Shown in pieces: positions 5,753-63,980 of a DNA stretch of 64,000 nt. The stretch lies in assembly GCA_041653115.1 (NCBI GenBank), contig JBAZGA010000006.1, forward strand, positions 734-64,733, given 5' to 3'. The stretch is from Candidatus Omnitrophota bacterium. Its GTDB lineage: Bacteria; Omnitrophota; Gorgyraeia; Gygaellales; Profunditerraquicolaceae. Both the position numbers and the translations under genes were made by a program. Below the pieces are notes generated by a model. That model worked only from the letters and a program-made list of their open reading frames with translations. It was not told the origin of the DNA and did no database searches. Position 1 is the stretch's first letter. Each line of letters starts with the position of its first letter.

Positions 5753-5762
5753 GATTTCCTCC

Positions 5763-7535: not shown

Positions 7536-7547
7536 AGATTCTCTCTC

Positions 7548-9468: not shown

Positions 9469-9470
9469 CT

Positions 9471-11216
9471 TTAACCTTCCTTCTGCGGCGCGGTTTTCTC
9501 TTTCAAAAGGAGAAATATTTCTTCTTCGGTTTTCTTAAATTCTGCGCTTTGCCAGGGGCAGGAGTTCCAGCCGCGGAAAAGCTGCCTTACTTGCTGGAAG
9601 AAACGCAGCGCTTCTTCTTTGCCCGTAAAAGAAAACTCTCTTTCCAGAATATTATGGATAAAACCAAAAATATAAGTCTGCCTTTCGCGTAAGGTCGCCT
9701 CATCTACCTTATCAAAAGCGTTCTGCTGTAAATAGACAAAATCAAAAAATTCACCCTTGAGGTAATCTATGTAATCGGCAAGCGAGGTGCCTTCTTCACC
9801 GATGACCTTCATCATCTGCCCCACCTCGTGGCTTTTGCGTAAAGCCAGGTGTCCGCGCCCTCCCTGCTTCTCATCGATAAAACTCTGGTATTTGCTCCAG
9901 CTGATTAAAGGATCGATTGCCGGGTAGCGCCTGGCATCTGAACGCTCGCGGGAGAGACCATGGAAAGCTCCCACGACCTTTAAGGTCGCCTGAGTTACCG
10001 GCTCCTCAAAGTTTCCGCCGGCAGGGCTGACTGCTCCGCCGATAGTCACAGAGCCGATACTGCCGTCATAAAGCTTAACCACGCCGGCGCGCTCATAAAA
10101 GGAGGCGATGCGCGACTCTAAATATGCCGGAAAGGCTTCTTCTCCGGGAATCTCTTCCAGTCTGCCGGACATCTCGCGCATTGCCTGCGCCCAGCGGGAC
10201 GTAGAATCGGCCAAAAGCAAAACCTGCAAACCCATCTGCCGGTAATATTCCGCCAGGGTAACCGCGGTGTAAACGCTCGACTCCCTTGCCGCCACAGGCA
10301 TAGAGCTGGTATTACAAATGATGATTGTCCTGTCCATCAGCGGTTTATTGGTGCGCGGGTCGGTTAACTTGGGAAAGGTCCTTAAGGTTTCCACCACTTC
10401 TCCGGCGCGTTCGCCGCAGGCGGCAATAATCACTACATCAACTTCGGCATGCCTGCTGACCAATTGCTGCAAAACTGTTTTCCCGGCGCCAAAGGGGCCG
10501 GGAATACAATAAGTCCCTCCGAGAGCAACGGGGAAAAGAGAATCTATTACCCGCATCTTGGTCACCAAAGGCTCTTCGGGCTTTAGTTTTTCCAGGTACG
10601 CGGAAATAGGGATTTTTACCGGCCAGGTTTGAGCGAGGTACGCCTCGCTGATATTGCCGTCGGAATCCTTGATTTTGGCAATCGGCTCTTTTAAATTGTA
10701 TTTGCCGGGGTTTGCGATAGAGATTATTTCCGCAACTCCCGGCAGAGAAAAGGGCGCCATAATATAATGCTTGAATATTTTTTCCGGAACAAAACCCAGT
10801 CTTTCTCCCGGCCGGACCTTATCGCCTTTTTTTAAGAGGGGCGTGAATTCCCAGGAGCTGTCTTCGGACAGGGCCTTAAGATAAACTCCCCGCTTAAGGA
10901 AAAAACCGTGCTGTTCGGCAAGCAAAGGAAGGGGGTTTTGCAGGCCGTCAAAAATCTGGCCCAATAGCCCCGGGCCTAATTCCACGGAGAGGAGCTCTCC
11001 GCTGAATTCCACCTGCTCTCCCACTTGCAAGCCGGTAGTATTTTCATAAACCTGCAGCTCCGCCGTATTCTGCCGGACGCGGATTACCTCCGACTTCAGG
11101 CGCTCATTACCGTGGATGATGTAAGCGACCTCATTCTGGATGACAAAGTTTTCAAAGCTTACCGCCACCATACTGGCGTTAATTTTACTAACAAGACCGG
11201 TTCTTTTATTAGGCAT
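9471..11216 (-). CDS. atpA: V-type ATPase catalytic subunit A
   Basis: 581 aa with Walker [10 protein letters not shown] and the non-homologous insert region typical of V/A-type A subunits. Confidence 0.9.
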
Positions 11217-11727
11217 ATTCTCTAATTATGGCGGCCTTATCCGCCTGGTTAATCTTTTCCCAGCGCTCTAAGATCAAGAGTTTCAGGGCATAAATAATCA
11301 GAAAATCCGCATCAAAATAATGCCCCAGAGAGAGCGTATCTAAAAATTCCCATCTTGTCTGATCTAAAATTCTTTCGCCCTCCAAGGGGGAAGGATTTCT
11401 CTGCGCCGCTACCGCGCGATGATAAATCGCTTCTCCCGCATATCCCTGCGCGCTCCTGAGATATTTTTCCGCGGGGACTTTTTTGCGCGCCGCCCTTAAT
11501 TTCACCAGCTCGTTCTTCAGCAATGTTTCAAAGCCGGAAAATCTCTCCAGAACCTCGTTTTTTTGCCGCGAGAAATCTCCTGAAGGCAAACTTTTTAATA
11601 CTTCCCGGTCTTTCTCCGGGATAAGGCCGGCGCATTTGCCCAGAAATACTTCAAAAGAAAAATGCGGCCTTGCCGAGAAATGCAGCATCGGTAAACTGGA
11701 AATTAAATATACGTAAAAGTCAGCCAC
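11209..11727 (-). CDS. Hypothetical protein at the E-A junction of the V-ATPase operon, the position held by the DUF2764 / C-F-surrogate gene in Chlamydia- and Bacteroidetes-type operons
   Basis: The call rests on operon position between subunits E and A. I do not recognise the sequence. At 172 aa it is shorter than the DUF2764 proteins I remember. Confidence 0.35.
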   Translation of the reverse strand: MADFYVYLISSLPMLHFSARPHFSFEVFLGKCAGLIPEKDREVLKSLPSGDFSRQKNEVLERFSGFETLLKNELVKLRAARKKVPAEKYLRSAQGYAGEAIYHRAVAAQRNPSPLEGERILDQTRWEFLDTLSLGHYFDADFLIIYALKLLILERWEKINQADKAAIIREYA

Positions 11728-11730
11728 GGC

Positions 11731-12336
11731 CTAAACTCCCAGGATGTCTTTTAGTTTCGGCTTGAGAAAATTCCCGATATACTCGGCAAGCGCCTTATCG
11801 CTAAAATCAAACTGCGATTTTCCTCCGTCGTAACTAATGACAAAACCGGCGCGGATGGCGTCTTGGGATTTAAGGGTGATTTTTTTCTTTGTCTCTTCTT
11901 TAAGCTTTGCCAAAAAGCCCTTTTCCAGGGTCTCTAAGTCATCTTTATTTAAGGAGACAATGATTTCCTCTTTGGCGGCGCTCGGGGCATTTTTAATCGC
12001 GCTGCTTAAAATCTTAGACAAACTCTCCGGAGTGAGCGCGTCTTGGACTTGCGCATTGATGAGTTTATCAAGCGTGGCATTAATTTCCTGCCGTAAAACC
12101 AGTAAAAGGTCCCTGCCCGCCTGTTGAAGCAGGCTTTTTTCTTTTTCCTGCATCAGGGAGATGTTTTCCTGCGCCTGCTTGAGGATTTTCTCCGCCTGGC
12201 TTTGCGCTTTTTCTAAAATCTCCTTTGCCCCGGCCTTGGCCTGCTCCTCTATTTTACTGGCCTTTTCTTCTGCCGCCAGAACCCCTTCCCGGTTTATTTT
12301 GTCTATTAACGCTTTAATATCTTCTGCCATAACCAA
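11731..12336 (-). CDS. atpE: V-type ATPase subunit E
   Basis: 201-aa Lys/Glu-rich long N-terminal helix plus a C-terminal globular domain. It is the first gene of the operon. Confidence 0.75.
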   Translation of the reverse strand: MVMAEDIKALIDKINREGVLAAEEKASKIEEQAKAGAKEILEKAQSQAEKILKQAQENISLMQEKEKSLLQQAGRDLLLVLRQEINATLDKLINAQVQDALTPESLSKILSSAIKNAPSAAKEEIIVSLNKDDLETLEKGFLAKLKEETKKKITLKSQDAIRAGFVISYDGGKSQFDFSDKALAEYIGNFLKPKLKDILGV

Positions 12337-22972: not shown

Positions 22973-24211
22973 CTAAAAAAGGCTGAGCTGCTTTTCGCCG
23001 TCTGAACTCTTTTCCGCTGGGCCGAAAAGAGAAATCACGCCGTATTCTCCGTCAAAGCCCGCCCGGATATTCACCTTTCCTTCGCGCATGCGCAAAACCC
23101 CTTCGGCAATGCGGGGGGAGAGGCCTTTAAGCAGCTCTTCCCTCGGCGCCCTCATCAGGATTTCAAACTCGCTGCCGAATTTGGCAATCGCGCTGCGGTA
23201 GTCTTTTTCTACGGCCAGAGAGCTTTTACCGATGCCCTTTGCTTCGGCAATAATTTCATCCAGGGGGATCAGGCTTTTGTATGGTATGGCATTGGCCGGC
23301 TTATAGCCCTCGGGCCTGTCTGCAAGCTGCTCCACGCGGTTCATTACGCCTACGGTAACGGGCTTGCCGCATTTGGGGCAGCGGCCGTGATTTTGCCTGG
23401 TTTCTTGAGGCGATAACCTCGCTTTACAGACCCGGTGTCCGTCAAAATGATATTTACCCTCTTCAGGAAAGAACTCAATGGTATATAAGAATCTTTTTTT
23501 ATCTTTAGTCATTAATACTTCTCTGATGGTTTGATAATTCAGTTCGCAATCAAACACATTCGCCTCGCGCCCGAGTTTTTGCGGCGAGTGGCTGTCGGAG
23601 TTACTCACCAAGGTGTATTTATCTAAAGCGGAGAGCCGCCAATTCATCGCCGGGTCGGAAGAAAGTCCGGTTTCCAGGGCGAAAATCTTCGGCGTCTGGC
23701 CTTCAAAACAATCCTGGATTTTATCGAAGCCGGACATGGAGCCGAAGAGAGAAAACCACGGCGTCCAGATGTGCCCGGGCACAACCATGCAATTCTCGTC
23801 GATGTCAAAAATAATCCGCGCCAGTTCCGCGGCATCCAGGCCTAAAATCGGCCTTCCGTCGCTGGCTAAATTTCCGTAACGGGCGAGCGTCTCATTGATT
23901 TTATCGGTAGTCTTAAAAGAGGGGCTCAAAACCATATTGTGTATGCGATAACCCCGGCCCTTTTTGGAATAAATGCTGCTGATTTCCGCGCTGAGAATAA
24001 AATAAACATCGCCGTATTTAAATAAGCCGTTCCCCAGGTCTTCTAAATTATGCTTTAACTCTTCCAGCCATAAATGGTGGGTAAAATCTCCGGTGCCGAT
24101 TAAGGTAATCCCTTTTAATTTTGCCCACTCGGCGATCTGTGCCACCTCCATATTCCTGCTGGTGGCGCGGGAATATTTAGAATGAATATGAAAATCCGCG
24201 ATAAATTCCAT
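22973..24211 (-). CDS. PHP-domain protein of the EndoQ / TIGR00375-like family (putative endonuclease for deaminated bases)
   Basis: N-terminal PHP motif MEFIADFHIHSKYSRATS and a C-terminal zinc ribbon C..C...CPKCG. Its length matches EndoQ. The most likely start is the Met 19 codons inside the ORF-track start, which abuts the upstream Mut7-C gene. Confidence 0.5.
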   Translation of the reverse strand: MEFIADFHIHSKYSRATSRNMEVAQIAEWAKLKGITLIGTGDFTHHLWLEELKHNLEDLGNGLFKYGDVYFILSAEISSIYSKKGRGYRIHNMVLSPSFKTTDKINETLARYGNLASDGRPILGLDAAELARIIFDIDENCMVVPGHIWTPWFSLFGSMSGFDKIQDCFEGQTPKIFALETGLSSDPAMNWRLSALDKYTLVSNSDSHSPQKLGREANVFDCELNYQTIREVLMTKDKKRFLYTIEFFPEEGKYHFDGHRVCKARLSPQETRQNHGRCPKCGKPVTVGVMNRVEQLADRPEGYKPANAIPYKSLIPLDEIIAEAKGIGKSSLAVEKDYRSAIAKFGSEFEILMRAPREELLKGLSPRIAEGVLRMREGKVNIRAGFDGEYGVISLFGPAEKSSDGEKQLSLF

Positions 24212-24213
24212 GG

Positions 24214-24663
24214 TTAAGCGATTTCCTCCAGTATCCGCGCAACATTCCCCCAATGCGTCCCCGGCCAATAAATCCGTTTACACTGCGGGCAGGCCAGAAA
24301 GGCCTCCTGCGTCTGGAAGACATATTCCGGGACCTTGTCTTTTGCTGCGGGCTTGCTGATTTCCGCTAATAACTCGTTACAAATTGTGCAGCGGTTAAAC
24401 ATCGTTTTTTTATCCGGTCTGATTTTCAAGGCCCTGGATATTTCCGGGATCTGTTCTCGGAGCCTTTCACTTTTTAACAATACAACCTTTATCCCGGAAG
24501 GCTTACTCAGGCGGTGGTTGCGGGTAATAATCACGCGGTCATCGCGCAGCGCCCGGATAATTAAAGAGCCCGGGTTGTCTTCTTTGGAATAAACAGTGTC
24601 CAGCCCTAAAATCCTCAGCCATTTGGCGAGCCTGCCCAATTCTTTAGTGAGGATGAGCTTCAT
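24214..24663 (-). CDS. Mut7-C (DUF82) PIN-like RNase-domain protein
   Basis: N-terminal PIN-like region and a C-terminal CTICN...CPQCKRIYWPGTHW zinc ribbon, characteristic of the Mut7-C family. Confidence 0.65.
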   Translation of the reverse strand: MKLILTKELGRLAKWLRILGLDTVYSKEDNPGSLIIRALRDDRVIITRNHRLSKPSGIKVVLLKSERLREQIPEISRALKIRPDKKTMFNRCTICNELLAEISKPAAKDKVPEYVFQTQEAFLACPQCKRIYWPGTHWGNVARILEEIA

Positions 24664-27562: not shown

Positions 27563-27575
27563 GGCAATATTTTCC

Positions 27576-27604
27576 TTGATTTTGGCATATTAGGAGGTTA
27601 TACT
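27576..27604 (+). promoter_or_regulatory. Sigma70-like promoter for the divergent pilin-like operon (-35 TTGATT, 17-nt spacer, -10 TATACT)
   Basis: Read from the sequence. A GGAGGGG Shine-Dalgarno follows at 27610-27616. Confidence 0.45.
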
Positions 27605-27631
27605 TTATTGGAGGGGCTGATTTTTACGTTT

Positions 27632-28054
27632 ATGCAGAAAAGTATGACAGTAATTGAGGTTATAACAATTATAATAATAGTAGGCTTGCTTGCGGTAATC
27701 GCCTTCTCTAAATCTGACGATTTTGTAGAAGGTTACCGGGGCAAAGAAGCCGAAGAAAACCTTGACTTGATCCATAATGCTGAAAAAAGATACGCTCTTG
27801 CCAATGCCGGCGCGTATTTTATCTGTGCTGCCGCAGGCGGCAGCCCAAGCTGCCGGGAGCAGATGAAGCAAAAAACAGGTTTGGGGCTGGAGATTACAGG
27901 TTCCCGCTTTAATTATACTATTACTACTACCAGTGCCAAGAGAACCGATTTTACTGCCACTGCCACCAGGAAAAATGACGGCCCTTGCGCCGGCAAAACT
28001 ATGAGCATCACCCAGGATGGCGGGGCAGTACAAAAAGGATGTAGCGTATGGTAG
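27632..28054 (+). CDS. Type IV pilin-like protein with a non-canonical leader (Ser at -1)
   Basis: MQKS|MTVIEVITIIIIVGLLAVIAF has a hydrophobic helix with Glu at +5, then KEAEENLDLIHNAEKRYA in the pilin alpha1-C region, and 4 Cys in the C-terminal half. Start chosen at ATG 27632, since the ORF-track extension to 27344 overlaps the pyrR leader. Confidence 0.55.
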   Translation: MQKSMTVIEVITIIIIVGLLAVIAFSKSDDFVEGYRGKEAEENLDLIHNAEKRYALANAGAYFICAAAGGSPSCREQMKQKTGLGLEITGSRFNYTITTTSAKRTDFTATATRKNDGPCAGKTMSITQDGGAVQKGCSVW

Positions 28055-29373
28055 CATTTGTTTTGGCGTTTACCCTGCTGATCTCTCTGGTTAACCCGGC
28101 TTATGCCCAATCCGGCTCTATCAAATACCTGCCGCGTAACGAGGATATGGACACAAAGATAAAAAGCTATGGCTCCTCTCCCCGCACATTAAGAGAAATT
28201 ACCTGCGGCGATGCAATGCAAGCTTATTTTAACCGGGCTTCCGAGTGTAGTTACTGCGTGCAGGATTTAAAACCCGCCTGCCCTGACTGTTGCTTAGTCT
28301 TGACCCCCAGTAAAAGAGCAATCAGGTGCACTACCGGGGAAGACACAAGGTATGAAGCTTATGACTCTGCAAATGTTGCTTTCGAGTCTACAAATTGCCC
28401 GGCGCTGAATTACCCGGTTTATACTCCCAACTGGGACAATATTTGCAGCGACTGGAATAAATTTACCGACCATTGGGATACCGGCGCTTCGATGTCCAGG
28501 CAAAACCTCGTCCAACAGCGGGGCTGCCCTGGCTATCTTGATACCTATCCCCGGGCAAGTTTTAATACGGGAGATTGCCGGGGAGATTCCTGCGAAAGAG
28601 ATGACCGAGATGCCCTGCCCAGCAATGCAGGCTGTGCTTCCCGGGTTCCCGCTCAAGTTACTTCACCTTATCAATCGCTTCCCTGTTTTAATATCAGCCC
28701 TAATACCGACCCTGACTATCCCTGGGAATATGAACCGACCTCGGGGTTCATAGGCGCTAAAAATAAGTGCCTGAATTATACTAATACCTGGAATGCTTAC
28801 ACCAATATCCGCGAATGCTGCCGCAGGGTAGTCTGTTCTAGCAAGAACCCGCAACAGCCGGGATATGACCAAAATTGCGATAATACCTCCTGTCTCGTGA
28901 GAATTAATTCCTTCCCAGCCTGCGATGCATATACTGCTCAAACCTGCATCGAGCTCTATGATTCTGCGATAGATACCTTGCTGCAGAGCGAAAAAAGCGC
29001 ACAAGTATGTTTTAAGGAAATCGACCCGAGCTTCGTCTATTCTTTTGTAGCGAAAAGCCGGGAGTCAGTCACGGTCATCTGGCAGCTGAGCACTAAGCCT
29101 GCTTTTATCCCTGACGCGCCTACCTATTTCTTTAGCAAAATCAAGGTCTTTGAAAGGGACAGCGGAGCGCTCGTCCACGACAGTATAATTCACCAAAAAA
29201 GCTTAGACGCGGTATATTCGGTATTTTGCGCCACGCACATATCCGGCGATGTTTTAGAGCCGGGTAAAGCCTATCTGGTAAAACCATATTACTTCCTCCC
29301 CAAAATCACTGGGAAAGATTTAAGTATAGATGTAAATAGTATCACCCTGATCTGGATAAGGATCAGGGAATAA
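28048..29373 (+). CDS. Cysteine-rich secreted protein (441 aa, ~24 Cys) with no recognisable family
   Basis: Signal peptide MVAFVLAFTLLISLVNPAYA|QSG. The N-terminal two-thirds are Cys-dense (CPDCC, ECCRRVVC). The C-terminal ~120 aa look beta-rich. The start overlaps the upstream stop (ATGGTAG). Confidence 0.6.
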   Translation: MVAFVLAFTLLISLVNPAYAQSGSIKYLPRNEDMDTKIKSYGSSPRTLREITCGDAMQAYFNRASECSYCVQDLKPACPDCCLVLTPSKRAIRCTTGEDTRYEAYDSANVAFESTNCPALNYPVYTPNWDNICSDWNKFTDHWDTGASMSRQNLVQQRGCPGYLDTYPRASFNTGDCRGDSCERDDRDALPSNAGCASRVPAQVTSPYQSLPCFNISPNTDPDYPWEYEPTSGFIGAKNKCLNYTNTWNAYTNIRECCRRVVCSSKNPQQPGYDQNCDNTSCLVRINSFPACDAYTAQTCIELYDSAIDTLLQSEKSAQVCFKEIDPSFVYSFVAKSRESVTVIWQLSTKPAFIPDAPTYFFSKIKVFERDSGALVHDSIIHQKSLDAVYSVFCATHISGDVLEPGKAYLVKPYYFLPKITGKDLSIDVNSITLIWIRIRE

Positions 29374-29397
29374 CTGGGAATAACGGAGGTGAGAAAA

Positions 29398-30201
29398 ATG
29401 AAAGGAAAGATACGCTTGGTATTACCGCCTCTGATTGTGCTGCTTCTGACAACTGGCCTAGCCTTCTCTGCCAACACACTCTGGGCGGCGGACACAGAAA
29501 CAGGAATGAGCGTAAGTATGCCGGCAACGCCTGTACCGGCGGTCACGGAAATCGTGGGCGGTGACAAAGCAACATTATCTCCAACCCGCTTTCCAGAATT
29601 CTACGATGCCTCCAGCGACAATCCCGCGTGCGATCAGAAGATAAGGGCATTAAACGGTCAGTGGCTCTGGACGCCCAGCCCGTATACGGGCAGAAGGCAT
29701 AGCAACGCACCGGCAAGTGACCCGGGGTTCACTGCTATATCAGGGCTGACTAAGGAGAAGTTTAAAATTCCCGCGCAATACAAAACCACTGCCAAGCTCT
29801 TGATTACCTGGACAGTGCGCGTATTAGGCGAGAAACCGAGCCCCTGGCCAATCTGGCCCAGCCTATGCAGTCCCTGGCACGGCACATCCTATCAGCGCTT
29901 CCGCGGCGGAGACGTAGAAACGCAGTTGTATGTCAAGGCGAGCAATAAATCAACCTGGGAAGCAACCGGGGCAAAGGCATTAATGACCGTGCCCGACGGC
30001 GGCACAGCGAGCATCACCCAGCCGCGCGATCCCACGCTGACCGGCAGCTATGTCTTAGAACCGGATACGTTTGGCGGGACATTCCCCGATGCCATAGACA
30101 TACAGATCAGGTGGCACAACTTGACGTCGCTAAACATCTATAGCCCGGCTAAGATGCGGAACTTGATTATCACCATGGTGCCGATTACTACGCAAGATTA
30201 A
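29398..30201 (+). CDS. Secreted hypothetical protein (~268 aa)
   Basis: A GGAGGTG Shine-Dalgarno lies 6 nt upstream of ATG 29398. Signal peptide MKGKIRLVLPPLIVLLLTTGLAFSA. No family recognised. Confidence 0.55.
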   Translation: MKGKIRLVLPPLIVLLLTTGLAFSANTLWAADTETGMSVSMPATPVPAVTEIVGGDKATLSPTRFPEFYDASSDNPACDQKIRALNGQWLWTPSPYTGRRHSNAPASDPGFTAISGLTKEKFKIPAQYKTTAKLLITWTVRVLGEKPSPWPIWPSLCSPWHGTSYQRFRGGDVETQLYVKASNKSTWEATGAKALMTVPDGGTASITQPRDPTLTGSYVLEPDTFGGTFPDAIDIQIRWHNLTSLNIYSPAKMRNLIITMVPITTQD

Positions 30202-30203
30202 AT

Positions 30204-31112
30204 ATGCAGGGAAGAAATCACGCCTCTAAAAGAGTGAGAGGGTTCACTCTTTTAGAGGTAGTCGTAAGCGCGTTCCTGATTGCTATCGGGATAGGGGTCC
30301 TGGTCAGGCTGGTTTCGGTTGGCCGCTTTTTCCTGTTGCGTGCAGAAAATAAATCCAAGGCAATGAGTGTCGCCTTGGTCAAAATGGAAGAATACCTGGC
30401 AAAATCCTATACCGGCTTAGAAAAAACAACATCTCCGGTCTCGGGTACCGATACCAAGAACAAGGTTGACTGGGTAGTCAATATCCGTAAAAAATACGAG
30501 GGTTCTTCCAAGGTAACCGGCCAAATTCCCATACCATATCAGCTTATTGAAGTAAATGCAACCTATAATGAAACCGATGCCGGCGGCAAGACCGAAACCA
30601 GGGCGGTGCGGCTGGAAAATATCATTCCTTATCCCCTGCTGCACAGTAAGACCATAGAGGTTATCGGGGATAAGACAATGAGAGTGCCCTATAAGTCCTA
30701 CCAAAAAATACCCGGATTAGAGACCAGCTTTAATTATGAGGTGCCAAAAAATTTTCTCGTAATCTATAATATCGCCATCAGGGTTGACGAACCCGGGAAT
30801 ATCCAAGCTCACCACACCATGCACACCGCCTGTTTTCTGCGCTTCCCCAACGGAGAGCTCAAGGGCCCTCTGCCGATAGAAACCGGCACGCCGATAATCA
30901 GTCAGCCTTTAATCAATAATGCCGTAGGAATGACCGATAGGGTTTACCTGGTAGGCCCTGGCTACATCGATTTCCCGCTGCCCCCGCTTCCTACCGGCCA
31001 AAAATATACTGTTGAGATAATGTGGTATAAAGATACCGAGCTCGCAGACGAAGGTAAGGTCAGTTTGCGGGAGGCGAACTTAACCGTGATTGCCATGGAA
31101 AATGCGGAATAA
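30204..31112 (+). CDS. Pseudopilin / minor pilin-like protein with a class III signal peptide
   Basis: MQGRNHASKRVRG|FTLLEVVVSAFLIAIGIGVLV shows Gly at -1, Phe at +1 and Glu at +5. 302 aa. Confidence 0.65.
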   Translation: MQGRNHASKRVRGFTLLEVVVSAFLIAIGIGVLVRLVSVGRFFLLRAENKSKAMSVALVKMEEYLAKSYTGLEKTTSPVSGTDTKNKVDWVVNIRKKYEGSSKVTGQIPIPYQLIEVNATYNETDAGGKTETRAVRLENIIPYPLLHSKTIEVIGDKTMRVPYKSYQKIPGLETSFNYEVPKNFLVIYNIAIRVDEPGNIQAHHTMHTACFLRFPNGELKGPLPIETGTPIISQPLINNAVGMTDRVYLVGPGYIDFPLPPLPTGQKYTVEIMWYKDTELADEGKVSLREANLTVIAMENAE

Positions 31113-31665
31113 GCTATCTAAGGGCTTAAGCCTGGTAGAATTAATTGTCGCCGTAATATTAGTAGGTACTCTCTTTATTACTTTAGGGACGGGTTATGCC
31201 TTTATTTACGGCCGGATTACAGCGAACCTGAAACTACAAAAGACGCTCCTGCAAATAGACTACACCCTGGAAAATATCCGGCTGCACTGCCTTAGCGCAA
31301 GTAAAGTCGCCGACGGTTCTTTATTCCCGGCGGGCACAACCAGCCAGAAATCCAGCTTACAATTCCAGGGAGAAAGCAATATTTACAATATCACGCCGGA
31401 TGATTTAAGCGATAACCTAGAATATACTTATAGCAAAGATAGCGAAGGGAACCTGGTGCTTTTAAGCGCGGCGATCCCCGGTGTTACTAGCTCTACAATT
31501 ACTATTATACCGAAAGAAGTCCTGGTGGATAAACAGTATGCGCCGCAGATAACCTTTCAGTATACCCAGGGCACAGAACCGAATTTCCTGAGCGTCACTA
31601 TCGATACGCCGCTGACCTCAAAAACCGAAGGCGTGAGGTTCTGGTTTACGGAAGTGGTAAAATGA
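31102..31665 (+). CDS. Pseudopilin / minor pilin-like protein with a class III signal peptide
   Basis: MRNKLSKG|LSLVELIVAVILVGTLF shows Gly at -1 and Glu at +5. The start could be 31090 or 31102. It overlaps the upstream stop. Confidence 0.6.
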   Translation: MRNKLSKGLSLVELIVAVILVGTLFITLGTGYAFIYGRITANLKLQKTLLQIDYTLENIRLHCLSASKVADGSLFPAGTTSQKSSLQFQGESNIYNITPDDLSDNLEYTYSKDSEGNLVLLSAAIPGVTSSTITIIPKEVLVDKQYAPQITFQYTQGTEPNFLSVTIDTPLTSKTEGVRFWFTEVVK

Positions 31666-32075
31666 TCTGGATAATCTCTTTAGTGCTGACAATTTTCTTT
31701 ATCTTGAGCGGGGTCTTTATCGGCTTTGCGCCTCCAGCACATAGCCTCGTAGAGAAGGATTTTTTAAATCGGGCTGGTTATTATGCGCGTCTGGAAGGCC
31801 TGCAATACGGCAATATCTGCTTAAGGGCAAAAACCATGGATCCGGCTGTTGCCAATGCTAACTCCCCGCAAAGGCGCCGAGTCATTCAAAGCGAGCTCTT
31901 TACCGCCGCTGTGCAAACTACAGAAACCCTGCAAAGAACAGTTTATAGCGACATTCAGGTCTTGCCTGGCGCGCCGGCTACTGTTAAAGCAACTGCCGAC
32001 TTAGTCCAGCCCAAAACCCCGCCCGCGCCCCAGCCGCAATCGCTGCTTTCTGCGCCTACGCAACCGGATAATTAA
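31662..32075 (+). CDS. Small N-terminally membrane-anchored protein, last gene of the pilin-like operon
   Basis: One N-terminal TM segment (IWIISLVLTIFFILSGVFIGF) and a Pro/Gln-rich C-terminus. Its start overlaps the upstream stop (ATGA). Confidence 0.45.
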   Translation: MIWIISLVLTIFFILSGVFIGFAPPAHSLVEKDFLNRAGYYARLEGLQYGNICLRAKTMDPAVANANSPQRRRVIQSELFTAAVQTTETLQRTVYSDIQVLPGAPATVKATADLVQPKTPPAPQPQSLLSAPTQPDN

Positions 32076-39867: not shown

Positions 39868-40959
39868 CTAACCCAGGCGCATCGGCAAGACGATATAAAT
39901 ATAGCCGTCAATACGAATCACCCCGGGCTTTTCGCTGTCCGTCAACTCGAATTCTATAACTTCCTGCGGCAGGCTCTTTAAAACATCGGCTAAATAGGCC
40001 GGGTTAAAACCAATAGCCATCTCTTTGCCGCGGTATTCTACGGATACCTCTTCGTGAGATTCTCCGATATCAGGTGTAGATTTAGAAACCACCAGTTTAT
40101 CCTTGAAGACCTCCAGCTTAATCGCCTGATAGTCCGGCGTAGAAAGCAAGGCTGCCCTTTTTACCGCCAATAAAAACTGCTCGCGGTCCAGCTTAACCTT
40201 ATTCTCGGAAGCCGGTGGCACAACCTGCCGATAGTCCGGGAATTCTCCTTCGATTAGACGGGAGATAATGATCACTCCTCCTAAATCAAATAACACCTGA
40301 TTCCCTCCCAACACCAGAGATAACACCCCTTCGTCTTTAAGGTTGCGGTTGAGTTCTTGGATTGTTTTAATCGGCACAATGATGCTGACTTCTTTATCAA
40401 CCTCCTGCTTGAGTTTCCTCTCTACAATTGCCAATCTTTTACCGTCTGTGGCCACAAAAGTAAGGTTGTTTTTGGTAATTTTAAAAAGTATGCCGTTTAA
40501 AATATACCTTGTTTCGTCGGAAGAAACCGCAAAAGAGGTGAGCGCCAGCGCTTCTTTAAGCAGCAACTGCTCCAACCTGATTACCTCTTTATCTTTAAAT
40601 TCGGGTAGTTTGGGGAACTCTTCGTGGGCTAATCCCATAATTTTAAACTGGCAGGTGTTGGTCTCGATTAGCAATAGGTTGTTTTTTTTGCTGTTTACTT
40701 CTATTGAATTGGCGGGCAACTCCCTGACAATATCGCCAAACTTTTTAGCCGGCACGGTAATTGCTCCAGCTTCTTTGGTTTCCACGGGTATTACACAGCT
40801 TATTCCTATATCTAAATCTGTGGCTGTCAGCCTGAGATTATTAGCCTGTGTTTCCATAAGGATATTAGATAATACCGGCAATGCTGCCTTTGTGGTAATT
40901 ATGTTCTGTACGGTTTGGATTCCGCTTAACAAAACTTCTTTTTCCACACTAAACCTCAT
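39868..40959 (-). CDS. dnaN: DNA polymerase III beta sliding clamp
   Basis: 363 aa with a three-domain clamp organisation. It lies next to dnaA. Confidence 0.9.
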   Translation of the reverse strand: MRFSVEKEVLLSGIQTVQNIITTKAALPVLSNILMETQANNLRLTATDLDIGISCVIPVETKEAGAITVPAKKFGDIVRELPANSIEVNSKKNNLLLIETNTCQFKIMGLAHEEFPKLPEFKDKEVIRLEQLLLKEALALTSFAVSSDETRYILNGILFKITKNNLTFVATDGKRLAIVERKLKQEVDKEVSIIVPIKTIQELNRNLKDEGVLSLVLGGNQVLFDLGGVIIISRLIEGEFPDYRQVVPPASENKVKLDREQFLLAVKRAALLSTPDYQAIKLEVFKDKLVVSKSTPDIGESHEEVSVEYRGKEMAIGFNPAYLADVLKSLPQEVIEFELTDSEKPGVIRIDGYIYIVLPMRLG

Positions 40960-41098
40960 TTTAACTCTCCTTTAATATTAATAAGTATATAATATATATC
41001 GTATTGGTAGTAATAGCTGTTTTGTTTCTGTTGAAAAGCCCGCAACCACCGCAATTTTAATAAATTAAAGAAAACATTCCCCGGGCATAACCCCTGAA

Positions 41099-42439
41099 TT
41101 ACTGTTTAATAATCTGGATAACCCGCTCAACCCTGTCTTTTAACCCGATATCTTTTATTAACCCTTCCTTAATCTTGTTATATGAGTGTAGTACCGTAGT
41201 GTGGTCTTTCCCCCCAAAAAAACCGCCTATCTCCGGCAAGGATAAATCCGTTAATTCCCGGCTCAAATACATTGCTACCTGCCGGGGTAAAACAACATGC
41301 TTATTGCGCCGCTTGGTTTTAAAATCCTGCAAAGAGATGCCGAATTCTTCAGCCACGCAGCGCTGGACGAAATCCACGGTAATCAGTTTCTTGGGTTCTT
41401 TCAAGAGGTCTTTTAACACTTCCCGTCCCAATTCCAGGGTTATTGGCTTTTCTTCCAATAAAGAATAAGCGATCGTGCGGATGAGCGCGCCCTCCAGCTC
41501 CCGGATATTAGTCTTAATCAGCTGGGCGATAAAAAATATGACTTCGTCCGGCACGGGAACAGATTCGCGTTCGATTTTCTTTTTTAAGATGGCTACGCGC
41601 GTCTCCAAGTCAGGCGGCTGGATATCTGTGGCCAGCCCCCAACTGAACCGTGAAACCAACCTGTCCTGCAGGTTGGCTATCTCTTTGGGCGGCCGGTCGG
41701 ATGAGATGATGATTTGTTTGTGGGCGTCATACAGGGTGTTGAAGGTGTGGAAGAACTCTTCCTGGGTTGATTCCTTGCCTGCAATAAACTGGATATCGTC
41801 GATAACCAGGATGTCTACTTTATTCCGGTATTTCTGCCGGAAGCCGGCGGTAGAATGGTGTTGGATGGCGTCGATTAATTCATTGGTAAACCGCTCCGAG
41901 GTTAGATAGCAGATTTTTGCCTGGGGCGAATTTTTGATCACCTGATGACAAATCGCCTGCATCAGGTGGGTTTTCCCCAAACCCACCCCTCCGTAGATAA
42001 GCAGGGGATTATAGGTCTTGGCAGGAGAGTCTGCTACTGCCAGGGAATAGGCATGGGCGTGCCGGTTGGAAGACCCGATGACAAAGTTCTCAAAGGTATA
42101 GCGGGAATTTAACCCTTGGCAAATCTGGGGTTCCCGCGCCAGCTTGACCGCCATTCTTTCGCTCTGTGTATTACTCAGGGCATCAGCTACGGCCTCTCCC
42201 ACCTCTAACTCGACCACGGTATCTTCCTGGCTCTGCCGCTTCAGCGCCTCGCGGATCAAGGGCAAGTAGTTTTTTTCAACCCAGTCCTTGAAAAATTTAT
42301 CCGGTGCCCGGAGAGTCAAGTGGCGGGCGTCATTTGCCTGGAGTTTTAAAGGCGCAATCCAGGTTTCAAAAGCCTCTTTACCTAAACGCTCCCTTAAATA
42401 CCCTGCGACCCTATCCCAGACAGTCTGCGTTCCTTGCAT
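41099..42439 (-). CDS. dnaA: Chromosomal replication initiator DnaA
   Basis: AAA+ Walker A GVGLGKTHL and a C-terminal DnaA-box-binding HTH. 446 aa. Confidence 0.95.
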   Translation of the reverse strand: MQGTQTVWDRVAGYLRERLGKEAFETWIAPLKLQANDARHLTLRAPDKFFKDWVEKNYLPLIREALKRQSQEDTVVELEVGEAVADALSNTQSERMAVKLAREPQICQGLNSRYTFENFVIGSSNRHAHAYSLAVADSPAKTYNPLLIYGGVGLGKTHLMQAICHQVIKNSPQAKICYLTSERFTNELIDAIQHHSTAGFRQKYRNKVDILVIDDIQFIAGKESTQEEFFHTFNTLYDAHKQIIISSDRPPKEIANLQDRLVSRFSWGLATDIQPPDLETRVAILKKKIERESVPVPDEVIFFIAQLIKTNIRELEGALIRTIAYSLLEEKPITLELGREVLKDLLKEPKKLITVDFVQRCVAEEFGISLQDFKTKRRNKHVVLPRQVAMYLSRELTDLSLPEIGGFFGGKDHTTVLHSYNKIKEGLIKDIGLKDRVERVIQIIKQ

Positions 42440-42689
42440 CGGCCTTGCTCCGTGCGGTTTTTATGCTATTCACAGTTTATTCACAACTTGTATAACTCTG
42501 TGGAAACATTATAGCAGAGAAAAAAGCGCTTGCAATAAAAAAGATAAGCGTGGATTATTATACAGTAGTTTGCCCGCGCGTCAATATAAAATTCAGACCG
42601 CCGCCACCTTTCTTTAAACTATATTGACTTCCCTCGATTTTATGTTATAATTAAAAAACTATTTCTATTTTAAGGAAGGACGCCGGGTA
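42440..42689. other. Candidate oriC / dnaA control region with two tandem DnaA boxes (CTATTCACA at 42466-42474, TTATTCACA at 42477-42485) and weaker box-like sites
   Basis: The boxes match TTATNCACA. The region sits between divergent dnaA and rpmH, where gene orientation switches, and is AT-rich (caataaaaaagataagc, caatataaaattc). Confidence 0.55.
42624..42651 (+). promoter_or_regulatory. Sigma70 promoter for rpmH (-35 TTGACT at 42624-42629, 16-nt spacer, -10 TATAAT at 42646-42651)
   Basis: Read from the sequence. The rpmH ATG lies ~40 nt downstream. Confidence 0.6.
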
Positions 42690-42827
42690 ATGAAAAAAAA
42701 TTTAAAGACGCCGACACACATTGTCGCAAAGCGCAGCCAAGGTTTCCGGAGCCGGATGAGCCGAAAGGCAGGCAGGAAAGTCTTGTCGCGCCGACGGAGA
42801 AAAGGAAGAAAGCGGCTCTCTATTTAA
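42690..42827 (+). CDS. rpmH: 50S ribosomal protein L34
   Basis: Hand translation: MKKNLKTPTHIVAKRSQGFRSRMSRKAGRKVLSRRRRKGRKRLSI. At 45 aa it falls below the ORF-track length cutoff. Confidence 0.9.
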   Translation: MKKNLKTPTHIVAKRSQGFRSRMSRKAGRKVLSRRRRKGRKRLSI

Positions 42828-43042
42828 TGTTAAAGAAGGTTTTGCTCAGCCTGATTAGCGCGTACCAAACCTATATCAGGGTTATGCTGCCGTCTTCTTG
42901 CCGGTTTTCGCCCAGCTGCTCGGATTATGCCAGGCAGGCAATTTTAAAGTACGGCGTTTATCGGGGTATTGCTAAGGCGGCAAGAAGATTATTCTGCTGC
43001 CACCCATTTTCCGGTAAATCCGGCTACGATCCCTTAATCTGA
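42827..43042 (+). CDS. yidD: Membrane protein insertion efficiency factor YidD
   Basis: LISAYQTYIRVMLPSSCRFSPSCSDYARQAI is the YidD signature. The start overlaps the rpmH stop. Confidence 0.85.
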   Translation: MLKKVLLSLISAYQTYIRVMLPSSCRFSPSCSDYARQAILKYGVYRGIAKAARRLFCCHPFSGKSGYDPLI

Positions 43043-43046
43043 CTTT

Positions 43047-44558
43047 ATGGAAAAACGTTTAATTATAGCGATCGCCTTATCTATGTTGGTGTTGTTGGCC
43101 TGGTCGGCTCTGGCCCCCAAGCCTCAGCCGGCATCCCCGGCCCTGCCCGCGTCACCAGCGGCCCCGTCGGAAAAGCGGCAAAGCGTACCCCTGCCGCAAG
43201 AGATTGAATGCGAACCCGCTCCCGAAGAGGTATTTTCCTACCAACGGGATAAAACTGAGCTCACTTTTATTGTGCCGCTGGCCGTGCTGAAAGAAGCCCG
43301 ATTTAAAGACTATCAGTCTTACCTCTTCCCCCTGAAGCAGGGGTTCTGGTTAGAGGATAAGGGCTTGGTCTTTCGTAAAGCAAGCGCTCCTCCCGGCGAA
43401 GTAATCTTTATCTATCAGGATAAAGAAAAAGAAATTATCAAGCGTTTTATTTTCTCTAACTCTAATTATAGCATGGAGTTAGAGATTGAAACCCGGAATC
43501 TCAGCGATTCTACAATCAGCCCGAGCTTACCCCTGGTATTGGGCGTATTGGATTTTTCCGGAGGGCAAAATCAAGCGCGCTTCCAAGACATTACCGCGGC
43601 ATTAAAAGATAAGACCCTGCATTTGAACGGCCGCAAAGACATGCAGTTGGAGGGAGTGCAATTCATCGGCATCCGCGACAGATACTTTTGCCTGATTGTC
43701 GAGCCCTCTGTAGAATCCCGGGCATTTATTCAAAAACTGAACTCTCACCAGGCAATCATCGGCTTAAATATAGAAAACCATTCGCTTGCGCCGGGTAGTA
43801 AAGATTTACAAAAATTTCATATCTATTTGGGACCCCAAGACTTGCAACTAATCAATCCAATTAAGTCCAGCTGGGCGCAAGTTGTACATTATGGCACCTT
43901 TGATTTCATTGCCCACCTGCTTTTACAGTTATTGAGGGTGGCATACCGCTTGGTCCACAACTGGGGCCTGGCGATTATAATTTTAAGCCTGGCCATTTAT
44001 TTCCTGCTCTACCCTTTTACCTTAAAACAGATGCGCTCAATGAAAGAGATGCAAGCCTTGCAGCCGCACATTGAAGAGCTGCGCAAGACCTATAAAGATA
44101 ATCCCCAGAAGATGAATAAAGAGATCATGGAGCTGTATCGAGAGCACAAAGTTAATCCTTTTGGCGGTTGCCTGCCCTTAATTTTACAGATGCCGATATT
44201 TTTTGCACTCTATCAAGCATTGTTGCGTTCGGTTTCTCTAAAAGGGGCGAGTTTTTTATGGATAAGGGATTTATCTGAACCTGACCGGTTATTCCTGCTT
44301 CCGGTTTCCTTACCGGTATTAGGCAACGAGATTAATCTTTTGCCAATAGTCATGGCCGTCGGGATGTTTCTACAGCAGAAGATGTCGCTCAAGAGCGCAG
44401 GCAGCGGCTCTGCCGAGCAGCAGCGTTTGATGATGATTATCCTGCCTTTGATGTTCGGCTTGATTTTTTATCATATGCCTGCGGGCTTAGTTTTATACTG
44501 GTTGGTCAATAGCGTGTTGATGTTAATTTCTCAATTTAAGACAAGCCGGGCAAGATGA
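43047..44558 (+). CDS. yidC: Membrane protein insertase YidC
   Basis: 503 aa with a periplasmic domain and a 5-TM core carrying the conserved LYPF and MPIFFALY motifs. Confidence 0.9.
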   Translation: MEKRLIIAIALSMLVLLAWSALAPKPQPASPALPASPAAPSEKRQSVPLPQEIECEPAPEEVFSYQRDKTELTFIVPLAVLKEARFKDYQSYLFPLKQGFWLEDKGLVFRKASAPPGEVIFIYQDKEKEIIKRFIFSNSNYSMELEIETRNLSDSTISPSLPLVLGVLDFSGGQNQARFQDITAALKDKTLHLNGRKDMQLEGVQFIGIRDRYFCLIVEPSVESRAFIQKLNSHQAIIGLNIENHSLAPGSKDLQKFHIYLGPQDLQLINPIKSSWAQVVHYGTFDFIAHLLLQLLRVAYRLVHNWGLAIIILSLAIYFLLYPFTLKQMRSMKEMQALQPHIEELRKTYKDNPQKMNKEIMELYREHKVNPFGGCLPLILQMPIFFALYQALLRSVSLKGASFLWIRDLSEPDRLFLLPVSLPVLGNEINLLPIVMAVGMFLQQKMSLKSAGSGSAEQQRLMMIILPLMFGLIFYHMPAGLVLYWLVNSVLMLISQFKTSRAR

Positions 44559-60137: not shown

Positions 60138-60343
60138 TTTTTTGTAAAGAGAGTAGTTATTTGAAAATATCCCTGCCGTGCACGTTGGAAAGCGCGATAA
60201 TTGGTGAACCAACACCACCATAAAGGGAGCCTGATACTCCTTTGGGGCTTAGGCGTCAAAGGGAGGGCACCCACTTTTAGGCAAGACGGTTCAGCCTATT
60301 TGCTTCCAACGGCACAGTGCGGGGATTTTTTTTGCCCGCGCTC

Positions 60344-63299: not shown

Positions 63300-63308
63300 C
63301 TGTAATAT

Positions 63309-63521: not shown

Positions 63522-63566
63522 TTTTTTCTTGCCAGCTTAACTAAACTATGTTAAATTTACTTAAGA

Positions 63567-63980
63567 ATGACAAGATTAAAGAAAGCTTTTACCTTGCTGG
63601 AGTTAGTCATTGTCATCGTCGTAGTGGGAGTTCTCGCCACCCTCGGTTTGCAATCATATCAGGTGACAATAGAAAAGAGCAGGGGCGCTGAAGCTAAGGC
63701 CAATCTGGGTTTACTGCGTAAATTGCAATTTGGCTATTATTTAGAGTATAACAAATATAGCAGCGGAGGTATTATAACGGATCTTGGATTGCCTGCGGGG
63801 ATCGGGTATGACTGTAGCGCTAGCGGCGAAGAATACTATTTCAAATACAGATGCTCGACTACCGGGACATGTTATGCTTATAGATGTACTACCGGAGGCA
63901 AACCCCCTTCATCAAGCACGGGTTATGTGATATACTTGAGTACCGCCGGCGTCTGGAGCGGAACCGCGGGTTATTATTAA
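63567..63980 (+). CDS. Type IV pilin-like protein (Ala at -1)
   Basis: MTRLKKA|FTLLELVIVIVVVGVLATLG with Glu at +5, then EKSRGAEAKANLGLLRK, and 4 Cys in a Gly/Tyr/Thr-rich C-terminal region. Its architecture is similar to the 27632 gene. Confidence 0.65.
   Translation: MTRLKKAFTLLELVIVIVVVGVLATLGLQSYQVTIEKSRGAEAKANLGLLRKLQFGYYLEYNKYSSGGIITDLGLPAGIGYDCSASGEEYYFKYRCSTTGTCYAYRCTTGGKPPSSSTGYVIYLSTAGVWSGTAGYY

What the first reader, a model, noticed from the sequence alone, without database searches (positions are those of the whole stretch)
27563..32075. Plus-strand island encoding a pilin-like fibre operon with no assembly machinery, inserted in the minus-strand array beside the pyr operon
Six tightly coupled plus-strand genes share one sigma70-like promoter: a PilA-like pilin, a 441-aa Cys-rich secreted protein, a 268-aa secreted protein, two pseudopilins with textbook class III leaders (RG|FTLLE and KG|LSLVE), and a small membrane-anchored protein. 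Stop and start codons overlap at ATGGTAG and ATGA. The island interrupts an otherwise uninterrupted minus-strand region. No prepilin peptidase, platform protein, secretin or intact ATPase is nearby. The only ATPase, a frameshifted CpaF-like gene, lies 17 kb away. The arrangement resembles a minor-pilin plus tip-adhesin module (PilVWX-PilY1-like) but uses unrelated, unrecognisable large subunits. It could be a new adhesive fibre or pseudopilus for surface or host attachment.
Basis: partly seen in the sequence, partly recalled or inferred. Interest (0 to 1): 0.75.

Follow-up and report, generated by a model that had tools for sequence, protein, structure and literature searches.

The report
Omnitrophota pilus-tip gene cassette
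Six tightly packed genes in an uncultured Omnitrophota bacterium encode four pilin-like proteins and two secreted proteins with TNF/C1q-type "knob" folds, a conserved phylum-specific kit that most likely builds the sticky tip of a type IV pilus whose motor is encoded elsewhere.

Summary
Six co-directional, overlapping or nearly abutting genes lie at 27632-32075 (+). Three (g1, g4, g5) have short basic leaders, G/A/S at -1, Glu+5 and a hydrophobic helix. g2 (441 aa, 24 Cys) and g3 (about 267-270 aa) carry Sec signal peptides. g6 is a leaderless protein with an N-terminal membrane helix.

The set is not a chance grouping or a foreign island. The same six genes, in the same order, occur in 12 distinct Omnitrophota cassettes in at least five genomic contexts. 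GC and GC3 match the flanks. Three relatives carry it at this pyrR/rsmI site.

Missing machinery in cis is not unusual. Type IVa pili are reported as near-universal in the phylum, and two relatives have PilB/PilC or PilM within 1.4-8 kb. A fourth prepilin at 63567-63980 is homologous to the pilin that directly follows the cassette in two relatives.

Best reading: a new variant of the minor-pilin priming/tip module, with TNF-like proteins in the PilY1 role. All function is inferred.

The parts
27576..27604 (+). Sigma-70-like promoter candidate (TTGATT-17-TATACT) in the divergent pyrR/g1 intergenic region
   Evidence: 9 of 12 matches. The number of such sites in the region is not above the shuffle expectation. 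A stronger divergent site (TTGACA-17-TATATT, minus strand, 27562-27534) probably serves pyrR.
27632..28054 (+). g1: small type IV prepilin (140 aa; leader MQKS, mature MTVIE...; four Cys in the mature part). Proposed H-type or adapter minor pilin.
   Evidence: weak PilA, GspG and ComP_DUS hits; nine orthologues whose called ORF reaches the leader all have Glu5; the -1 residue is G, A or S.
28048..29373 (+). g2: Sec-exported 441-aa Cys-rich protein. It has a conserved N-terminal [ILV]x[YF][LI]Px[ND] motif just after the signal peptide, a variable Cys-rich middle, and a C-terminal TNF/C1q-like jelly roll (about residues 320-441).
29389..30201 (+). g3: Sec-exported 267-270-aa protein with a TNF/C1q-like jelly-roll fold (probable start ATG 29398)
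30204..31112 (+). g4: 302-aa prepilin (RG|FTLLE) with a PilV/GspI-like N-terminal module and a roughly 180-aa C-terminal extension of unknown fold
   Evidence: N_methyl 25.9 bits, above the cut-off; 8 of 9 orthologues hit TIGR02523 PilV (best E 3.8e-7), below the curated cut-off; weak hhalign hint (probability 15%) that the C-terminus resembles g3.
31090..31665 (+). g5: 191-aa prepilin (KG|LSLVE; probable start ATG 31102). Proposed J-type position.
   Evidence: sub-threshold N_methyl and GFxxxE hits; the leader, Glu5 and the C-terminal ...EG(I/V)RFWF motif are conserved in orthologues.
31662..32075 (+). g6: 137-aa leaderless protein with an N-terminal membrane helix, a conserved following helix and a short variable C-terminal region. 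No Glu5.
   Evidence: all 12 copies start directly with a hydrophobic stretch (11 of them M(I/V)xI(I/V)...). The conserved stretch is P24...D33...R55; no family hit.
63567..63980 (+). Fourth prepilin (137 aa, MTRLKKA|FTLLE). Candidate partner or major pilin of the cassette. It sits 31.5 kb downstream and follows a response-regulator gene.
   Evidence: N_methyl 24.0 bits, above the cut-off; 32-39% identical over its full length (E about 1e-15) to the pilin immediately downstream of the cassette in L016 and L019.

Best explanation
The six genes form a conserved, Omnitrophota-specific accessory module of the type IV filament superfamily. It most likely builds the priming and tip complex of a type IV pilus.

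**Shown**
- Three genes encode class III prepilins, and g6 is a leaderless protein with an N-terminal membrane helix.
- Two genes encode Sec-exported proteins with TNF/C1q-type jelly-roll domains.
- All six are translationally coupled or nearly so, and are strictly co-inherited in a fixed order.

**Inferred**
1. g1, g4 and g5 are cleaved by a prepilin peptidase encoded elsewhere.
2. Together with g6 they form a four-subunit minor-pilin complex. The gene order g1-[g2-g3]-g4-g5-g6 mirrors the canonical H-I-J-K order. g4 is I-like by weak sequence hits. g6 is K-like only in lacking Glu5.
3. This complex primes polymerisation of a major pilin, for which the 63567-63980 gene is a candidate. Polymerisation would run on PilB/PilC/PilMNOPQ-type machinery encoded outside the window.
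4. g2 and g3 reach the periplasm through Sec and fold there, g2 with many disulfides.
5. They then dock on the minor-pilin complex and are carried out at the pilus tip. g2 may dock through its conserved N-terminal aromatic motif, as TcpF and CofJ dock on TcpB and CofB.
6. At the tip they serve as receptor-binding or lectin-like heads, taking the role that PilY1/PilC plays in classical type IVa pili.

Given the proposed host-dependent lifestyle of the phylum, the likely use is attachment to surfaces or host or prey cells.
For: - **Prepilin features** are conserved in every orthologue whose called ORF reaches the leader.
- **Coupling:** junctions range from a 23-nt overlap to a 15-nt gap, and all six genes share one strand.
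- **Co-conservation:** 12 distinct cassettes keep identical gene order in at least five genomic contexts. This includes the most distant g3 homologues.
- **Folds:** g3 and the g2 C-terminus are TNF/C1q jelly rolls. Their best structural matches are trimeric lectins and fibre, spore or phage tip knobs: PLTL, Pgp3, BclA/F-ENA tip, Bdellovibrio Bd2734, phage tail fibres and the lambda tail tip.
- **g4** N-terminus hits PilV, GspI and XpsI in 8 of 9 members.
- **g2** N-terminal motif with an invariant aromatic residue lies next to the signal-peptide cleavage site in 11 of 11 copies. This parallels the TcpF/CofJ signal (PMC9565799).
- **Linkage to pilus genes in relatives:** PilB-like ATPase, PilC-like platform, two pilins and DsbA lie about 4.4-8 kb upstream in L014. 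PilM lies 1.4 kb downstream in L017. An extra pilin directly follows the cassette in L016 and L019, and its homologue is in this window.
- **Literature:** type IVa pili are reported in nearly all Omnitrophota (PMC10066038). The concept of four core minor pilins capped by a non-pilin tip protein, with variant sets in other phyla, comes from PMC10191384 and bioRxiv 10.64898/2026.02.12.705559.
Against: - No experimental or expression data exist for any member.
- No machinery gene lies on this contig, so dependence on a type IVa or T2SS-like machine is assumed.
- g4 and g5 C-terminal domains and g6 match no solved minor pilin by sequence, and I could not model them.
- g6 has no cleavable leader, unlike GspK or PilX.
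- The H-I-J-K mapping rests on gene order, gene count and sub-threshold hits.
- Tip location of g2 and g3, as opposed to release, cannot be told from sequence.
- The g2 model is poor for residues 77-291.
Confidence: 0.6

Rival explanations
1. Secretion module. The four pilin-like proteins form a short pseudopilus or pilus tip whose job is to export g2 and g3 as soluble, released factors (TNF-like lectins or toxins). This would resemble TcpF/CofJ export by type IVb pili, or substrate export by a T2SS, rather than display of adhesins.
For: - g2 and g3 have Sec signal peptides and no membrane anchor.
- The best structural matches include soluble secreted trimers: Photorhabdus PLTL lectin and Chlamydia Pgp3.
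- g1 weakly hits GspG.
- TcpF and CofJ set a precedent for operon-encoded cargo recognised through an N-terminal motif.
Against: - Nothing distinguishes release from tip retention.
- Leaders are short, of the type IVa or T2SS kind, not type IVb.
- No GspC/D/L/M genes are linked to the cassette in any of the contexts examined.
- The strictly conserved C-terminal strand of g2 (...IRIRE) and the 1:1 co-inheritance fit a stable structural complex at least as well.
Confidence: 0.2
2. Competence-pilus module. The cassette primes a DNA-uptake pilus, with g2 or g3 acting as a tip DNA receptor. By my recollection this would resemble ComZ within the Thermus pilA operon, or ComP.
For: - g1 and the 63567 pilin give weak ComP_DUS hits (E 0.0017 and 1e-4).
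- g4 and g5 orthologues give weak ComGE, ComGD and ComGF hits.
Against: - All these hits are below the curated cut-offs and are driven mainly by the shared pilin N-terminus or general small-pilin fold.
- As far as I know, TNF/C1q jelly rolls are not DNA binders.
- No comEA, comEC or dprA gene lies adjacent in any context examined.
Confidence: 0.07
3. Autonomous new fibre. The six proteins assemble on their own, or with an unknown non-type-IV machinery, into a new kind of surface filament.
For: No machinery lies in cis in most contexts.
Against: - Class III leaders with conserved Glu5 imply a prepilin peptidase and an ATPase-and-platform machine.
- Machinery or further pilin genes lie nearby in L014, L016, L017 and L019.
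- Type IVa pili are reported as near-universal in the phylum.
Confidence: 0.03

Closest known systems
Type IVa pilus minor-pilin operon with PilY1/PilC (P. aeruginosa fimU-pilVWXY1E; Neisseria pilHIJK plus PilC; Myxococcus minor-pilin/PilY1 clusters)
   Same: - Four pilin-like genes sit in one operon together with a large non-pilin, Sec-exported protein.
- The operon is separate from the assembly machinery.
- g4 gives PilV-like hits.
- The proposed role is priming assembly and presenting a tip adhesin (PMC10191384).
   Different: - There is no PilY1/PilC match in Pfam or NCBIfam. Where it can be modelled, the g2 C-terminus is a jelly roll, whereas PilY1's C-terminal domain is, to my knowledge, a beta-propeller.
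- There are two non-pilin partners, both TNF/C1q-type jelly rolls, placed between the first and second pilin genes.
- The last pilin-like protein has no leader at all.
- No member passes the curated PilV, PilW or PilX thresholds.
T2SS GspH-I-J-K pseudopilus tip complex
   Same: - Same number and order of pilin-like genes.
- One member lacks Glu5.
- g4 gives GspI/XpsI-like hits, and g1 weakly hits GspG.
   Different: - No GspC, D, E, F, L or M genes are linked.
- The Glu5-less member (g6) is the smallest rather than the largest, and it is leaderless.
- Two secreted proteins are embedded in the operon.
Type IVb pilus TcpB-TcpF and CofB-CofJ systems
   Same: A Sec-dependent soluble protein is encoded in the pilin operon. 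In those systems it binds a trimeric minor pilin at the pilus tip through a short N-terminal motif with a key aromatic residue (PMC9565799, PMC6048534). g2 has such a conserved motif directly after its signal peptide. TNF-like folds also imply three-fold symmetry.
   Different: - Leaders here are short, which I take as type IVa or T2SS-like; type IVb leaders are typically longer.
- There are four pilin-like genes rather than one minor pilin.
- No sequence similarity to TcpB, CofB, TcpF or CofJ turned up in the family and PDB searches.
Trimeric TNF/C1q-like tip domains of fibres: Bdellovibrio MAT fibre Bd2734, BclA and the F-ENA tip fibrillum, phage tail-fibre knobs, Photorhabdus PLTL and Burkholderia BC2L-C N-terminal lectins
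   Different: In those systems, as I understand them, the knob is fused to its own coiled-coil or collagen-like stalk, or is free. Here the knob proteins are separate polypeptides encoded among pilin genes. Sequence identity is only 7-13%.

Membership tests
Type IV (class III signal) prepilins: g1, g4, g5 | Short basic leader ending in a small residue (Gly, sometimes Ala or Ser) at -1 | tested here: met
   leaders are 4-19 aa. The -1 residue is G, A or S in every copy of g1, g4 and g5 whose called ORF reaches the leader, except L017 g5, which reads T at -1 (KKT|FTLAE).
Type IV (class III signal) prepilins: g1, g4, g5 | Glu at +5 followed by a hydrophobic helix of about 20 residues | tested here: met
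   Glu5 is invariant in 9 of 9 (g1), 11 of 11 (g4) and 11 of 11 (g5) orthologues whose called ORF reaches the leader.
Type IV (class III signal) prepilins: g1, g4, g5 | Pfam N_methyl (PF07963) at or above its gathering score | tested here: inconclusive
   g4 scores 25.9 bits (cut-off 21.2), g5 scores 17.1 (below), g1 has no hit. g1 has S at -1 and M at +1.
Type IV (class III signal) prepilins: g1, g4, g5 | Cleavage and N-methylation by a PilD-type peptidase | not testable with these tools
   No peptidase gene lies in the window. This needs biochemistry or the rest of the genome.
Core minor-pilin set H-I-J-K (GspHIJK / FimU-PilVWX) | Four pilin-like genes in one operon, one of them lacking Glu5 | tested here: met
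   g1, g4, g5 and g6. g6 lacks Glu5 in 12 of 12 copies. g6 also lacks any leader, which is atypical.
Core minor-pilin set H-I-J-K (GspHIJK / FimU-PilVWX) | Sequence membership in the curated PilV/GspI, PilW/GspJ, PilX/GspK or FimU/GspH models | tested here: not met
   the best hit is PilV at E 3.8e-7, well below its 52-bit cut-off. g5 and g6 have no specific hits. The PDB profile search matches only the N-terminal helix.
Core minor-pilin set H-I-J-K (GspHIJK / FimU-PilVWX) | Formation of an I-J-K-type tip complex | not testable with these tools
   Needs multimer structure prediction or biochemistry.
PilY1/PilC tip adhesins | C-terminal PilY1/PilC beta-propeller domain (feature recalled from my own knowledge) | tested here: not met
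   no Pfam or NCBIfam hit for g2 or g3. Modelled domains are jelly rolls.
TNF/C1q-like jelly-roll superfamily | Jelly-roll beta-sandwich that superposes on TNF/C1q-family structures | tested here: met
TNF/C1q-like jelly-roll superfamily | Trimer formation (homo- or heterotrimer) | not testable with these tools
   Only monomer models were possible.
TNF/C1q-like jelly-roll superfamily | Sequence match to the Pfam TNF or C1q families | tested here: not met
   no hit. A profile search of 1.84 billion proteins finds only the g3 family itself.
Type IVb TcpB/TcpF-like secretion pair | Operon-encoded Sec-dependent protein with a conserved N-terminal aromatic motif next to the signal-peptide cleavage site | tested here: met
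   the g2 motif [ILV]x[YF][LI]Px[ND] is present in 11 of 11 full-length copies. This is an analogy only; binding was not tested.
Type IVb TcpB/TcpF-like secretion pair | Type IVb pilin features: a long leader and a single large minor pilin (criterion recalled from my own knowledge) | tested here: not met
   leaders are 4-19 aa and there are four pilin-like genes.
Tad/Flp (type IVc) pilus | Flp-type short pilins and linked tadBC/rcpA genes alongside the CpaF ATPase (criteria recalled from my own knowledge) | tested here: not met
   The pilins are 140-302 aa with GFTLLE-type motifs. The cpaF gene is frameshifted, lies 17.6 kb away, and has no tad neighbours.

The most novel reading that the evidence does not exclude
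The jelly-roll domains of g2 and g3, with either a third one in the uncharacterised C-terminal extension of g4 or a second g3 copy, assemble into a heterotrimeric C1q-like head. That head is tethered to the pilus tip through g4's pilin helix. It would be a previously undescribed way of mounting a TNF/C1q-type receptor-binding knob on a type IV pilus, used by ultra-small Omnitrophota to recognise host or prey cells.

Points in its favour: strict 1:1:1 co-inheritance, duplication of g3 in some lineages, and a weak g4-g3 profile match. None of these excludes the idea and none demonstrates it.
Probability: 0.15. Interest if true: 0.8.

Novelty: new variant of a known kind. Interest (0 to 1): 0.55.

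Why it matters
Omnitrophota are widespread, uncultured, mostly ultra-small bacteria thought to depend on hosts or prey. Type IV pili are among the few candidate attachment organelles reported for them, and what those pili bind is unknown.

This cassette gives a concrete, conserved candidate for the pilus tip and adhesin. It has a fold class (TNF/C1q knob) that other systems use for receptor or glycan recognition at fibre tips.

It also adds a variant to the emerging picture that different lineages swap the non-pilin cap of the core minor-pilin complex. PilY1 in Proteobacteria and the beta-solenoid PilX subunits reported for cyanobacteria are examples.

The g2 and g3 families are currently unannotated hypothetical proteins with no Pfam family, so naming them would improve annotation of the genomes that carry them.

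Tried and rejected
- **g2 sequence searches.** Single-sequence and alignment searches found only 3-4 database homologues. Most homologues came from contig scans instead. As a result the g2 structure had a 4-sequence alignment, and its middle 200 residues are unmodelled.
- **Profile-profile comparisons.** g4, g5 and g2 C-terminal domains against g3 gave nothing significant. Even g2-C against g3, which share a fold, gave nothing. The fold of the g4 C-terminus therefore stays unknown.
- **PDB profile searches.** g4 and g5 matched only the pilin N-terminal helix.
- **AFDB.** The AFDB Foldseek library was unavailable.
- **Contig end.** I tried to recover the 3 kb of contig beyond the window through the 63567 pilin and its neighbour. 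Both look-ups failed.
- **Horizontal transfer rejected.** GC and GC3 lie within the flank range, and the cassette is syntenic in relatives.
- **CpaF as the cognate ATPase rejected.** It belongs to the wrong pilus class, is unlinked and is frameshifted.
- **Shared promoter not accepted as evidence.** The site count equals the shuffle expectation.
- **No RNA elements.** Rfam found no riboswitch or RNA element in the cassette or its leader.

Full report
**Source and setting.** The 441-aa protein is identical to a hypothetical protein of a Candidatus Omnitrophota MAG on a 67-kb contig. The window spans the chromosomal origin region. On the minus strand it carries dnaA (41099-42439), dnaN, gyrB, gyrA, glmS, rsmI, pyrR-pyrB-pyrC, carAB and a V-type ATPase operon. 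On the plus strand from 43 kb it carries yidC, parA and parB. Cumulative GC skew reaches its minimum near 43 kb. The long minus-strand run is therefore leading-strand gene orientation left of the origin, and the six plus-strand genes are a head-on exception within it. A second exception lies at 3580-5049.

**Observation.**
- g4 passes the Pfam N_methyl gathering score. g5 is just below it. g1 has only weak PilA, GspG and ComP_DUS hits. g2, g3 and g6 match nothing in Pfam or NCBIfam.
- The promoter-like site exists but is weak, and such sites are no commoner here than in shuffled sequence.
- None of the larger window ORFs that I scanned is a prepilin peptidase, platform protein, secretin or intact pilus ATPase.
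- The ATPase 17.6 kb downstream is a CpaF/TadA-type gene broken by a 1-nt frameshift near 50450. The joined ORFs match CpaF at E 2.6e-90 over residues 8-344. It belongs to the Tad class, which uses Flp-type pilins, so it is not the expected partner.

**Is the grouping real?** Yes. Contig scans and look-ups recovered the same six genes, in the same order and with similar sizes, in 12 distinct cassettes.
- The size ranges are about 124-149, 413-534, 233-297, 265-363, 178-206 and 95-137 aa.
- Three relatives carry the cassette at this locus. L003 has it directly between pyrR and rsmI. L013 has a 1994-aa gene inserted after pyrR. L005, on a short contig, shows only rsmI downstream.
- Other relatives carry it in at least four unrelated housekeeping contexts.
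- g3 is duplicated in L006-L008 and L019.
- Even the most distant g3 homologues found (E about 1e-31) sit in the full cassette.
- Every family member that carries a source name is Omnitrophota, apart from one 5-kb contig binned as Nitrospiraceae.
- GC and GC3 of the six genes fall within the range of the flanking housekeeping genes.

So this is a vertically inherited, occasionally relocated, phylum-specific module, not a recent insertion.

**The pilin-like genes.**
- Across the cassettes, every copy of g1, g4 and g5 whose called ORF reaches the leader has a 4-19-residue basic leader, Glu at +5 and a hydrophobic helix. The -1 residue is G, A or S, with one T (L017 g5).
- The N-terminal 110 or so residues of g4 hit the PilV model in 8 of 9 orthologues (best E 3.8e-7), and also GspI and XpsI. 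All hits are below the curated cut-offs. The remaining 180 or so residues of g4 have no detectable relatives.
- g5 gives only generic pilin hits.
- g6 starts directly with a hydrophobic stretch in all 12 copies, with no leader and no Glu5. A conserved helix and a short variable region follow, a pilin-like outline.
- Four pilin-like genes, one lacking Glu5, in the order g1-[g2-g3]-g4-g5-g6 mirror the H-I-J-K order of core minor pilins in type IVa pili and T2SS (PMC10191384). This mapping is an inference.
- A fourth true prepilin lies at 63567-63980 (N_methyl 24 bits). It is 32-39% identical over its full length to the pilin that immediately follows the cassette in L016 and L019. That makes it a candidate fibre-forming partner.

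**The two secreted proteins.**
- g3 modelled well with a 24-sequence alignment (pLDDT 82.8, pTM 0.73).
- Foldseek agrees: probability 1.0 to the PLTL and BC2L-C N-terminal lectins, plus hits to phage lambda and T1 tail-tip complexes.
- To my knowledge these reference domains are obligate trimers that act as receptor- or glycan-binding heads.
- g2 has 24-37 cysteines in full-length copies. Its middle varies, but its ends are conserved: [ILV]x[YF][LI]Px[ND] within a few residues of the predicted signal-peptide cleavage site in 11 of 11 full-length copies, and a terminal ...RIRE-like strand.
- The g3 family has only 154 representatives among 1.84 billion proteins, with no weaker relatives beyond it.

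**Machinery.** Minor-pilin operons commonly sit apart from the pilus machinery (my knowledge of P. aeruginosa and related systems).
- Type IVa pilus genes are reported in 135 of 141 Velamenicoccia genomes and in most members of the other Omnitrophota classes (PMC10066038).
- In L014 a PilB-like ATPase, a PilC-like platform protein, two pilins and a DsbA lie about 4.4-8 kb upstream of the cassette.
- In L017 a PilM gene lies 1.4 kb downstream.

"No assembly machinery nearby" is true of this window but is not evidence for an orphan system.

**Mechanism.** The best-supported reading is a minor-pilin priming and tip module that works with type IV filament machinery encoded elsewhere. Two TNF/C1q-like, Sec-exported proteins would take the place of PilY1/PilC. 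The conserved N-terminal aromatic motif of g2 recalls the way TcpF and CofJ hook onto the trimeric minor pilins TcpB and CofB (PMC9565799, PMC6048534). That is an analogy, not a tested interaction. Sequence cannot tell whether g2 and g3 stay on the tip as adhesins or are released as cargo, so I keep release as the main rival. A competence role and an autonomous fibre are less likely.

**Novelty.** The components belong to known kinds: type IV pilins and TNF/C1q jelly rolls. The combination does not match anything I found. That combination is an H-I-J-K-like set with two separate jelly-roll proteins embedded, a leaderless fourth member, and restriction to one candidate phylum. A full-text search for "minor pilin" together with "TNF-like" returned no paper. 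I rate it a new variant of a known kind. Interest is moderate. It offers a testable candidate for the host- or surface-binding tip of Omnitrophota pili, but every functional step is inferred.

Noticed in passing
window 49694-50771 (+): A CpaF/TadA-type pilus ATPase is split into two ORFs by a 1-nt frameshift near 50447-50452. The joined ORFs match CpaF structures at E 2.6e-90. It stands alone between a tRNA cluster and thrS, with no tadBC or rcpA neighbours. It could be a MAG assembly error or a real pseudogene.
   Followed up: partly
window 62889-63980 (+): A stand-alone response-regulator receiver gene (62889-63299) is followed by a fourth type IV prepilin (63567-63980). In two relatives (L016, L019) the homologous pilin lies directly after the six-gene cassette.
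   Followed up: partly
window 27590-27631 (+): Directly upstream of the g1 start codon and in the same frame, the sequence reads ...GG YTLLEGLIFTF, which resembles a second prepilin cleavage site (G|YTLLE). It has no nearby start codon and overlaps the promoter-like -10 element. It may be a relic of an older N-terminus or a coincidence.
   Followed up: no
window 39868-44558; GC-skew minimum near 43 kb: Replication-origin region: dnaA and dnaN on the minus strand, yidC, parA and parB on the plus strand, and a switch in gene orientation and GC skew near 43 kb.
   Followed up: yes
L013 1951-7935 (-): In a relative with the same pyrR...rsmI synteny, a 1994-aa protein (only a faint Pfam HEAT_2 hit) is inserted divergently between pyrR and the cassette. 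A 2026 preprint reports that giant Omnitrophota proteins are often flanked by T2SS or type IV pilus genes.
   Followed up: no
L006 3897-5474, L008 7256-8807, L019 10001-11715: The TNF-like g3 gene is tandemly duplicated in some lineages, giving seven-gene cassettes.
   Followed up: partly
window 5315-12336 (-): A V/A-type ATPase operon (subunits K/c, I, D, B, A, a DUF2764 protein and E) sits next to pyrF and pyrD.
   Followed up: no
window 22973-24268 (-): A 431-aa ORF between a flavodoxin-like gene and a Mut7-C RNase gene has no Pfam hit at E <= 0.01.
   Followed up: no
window 60167-60329 (+): A 6S RNA gene (Rfam RF00013, 58.6 bits) follows pheT. Seven tRNA genes are found elsewhere in the window.
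   Followed up: no
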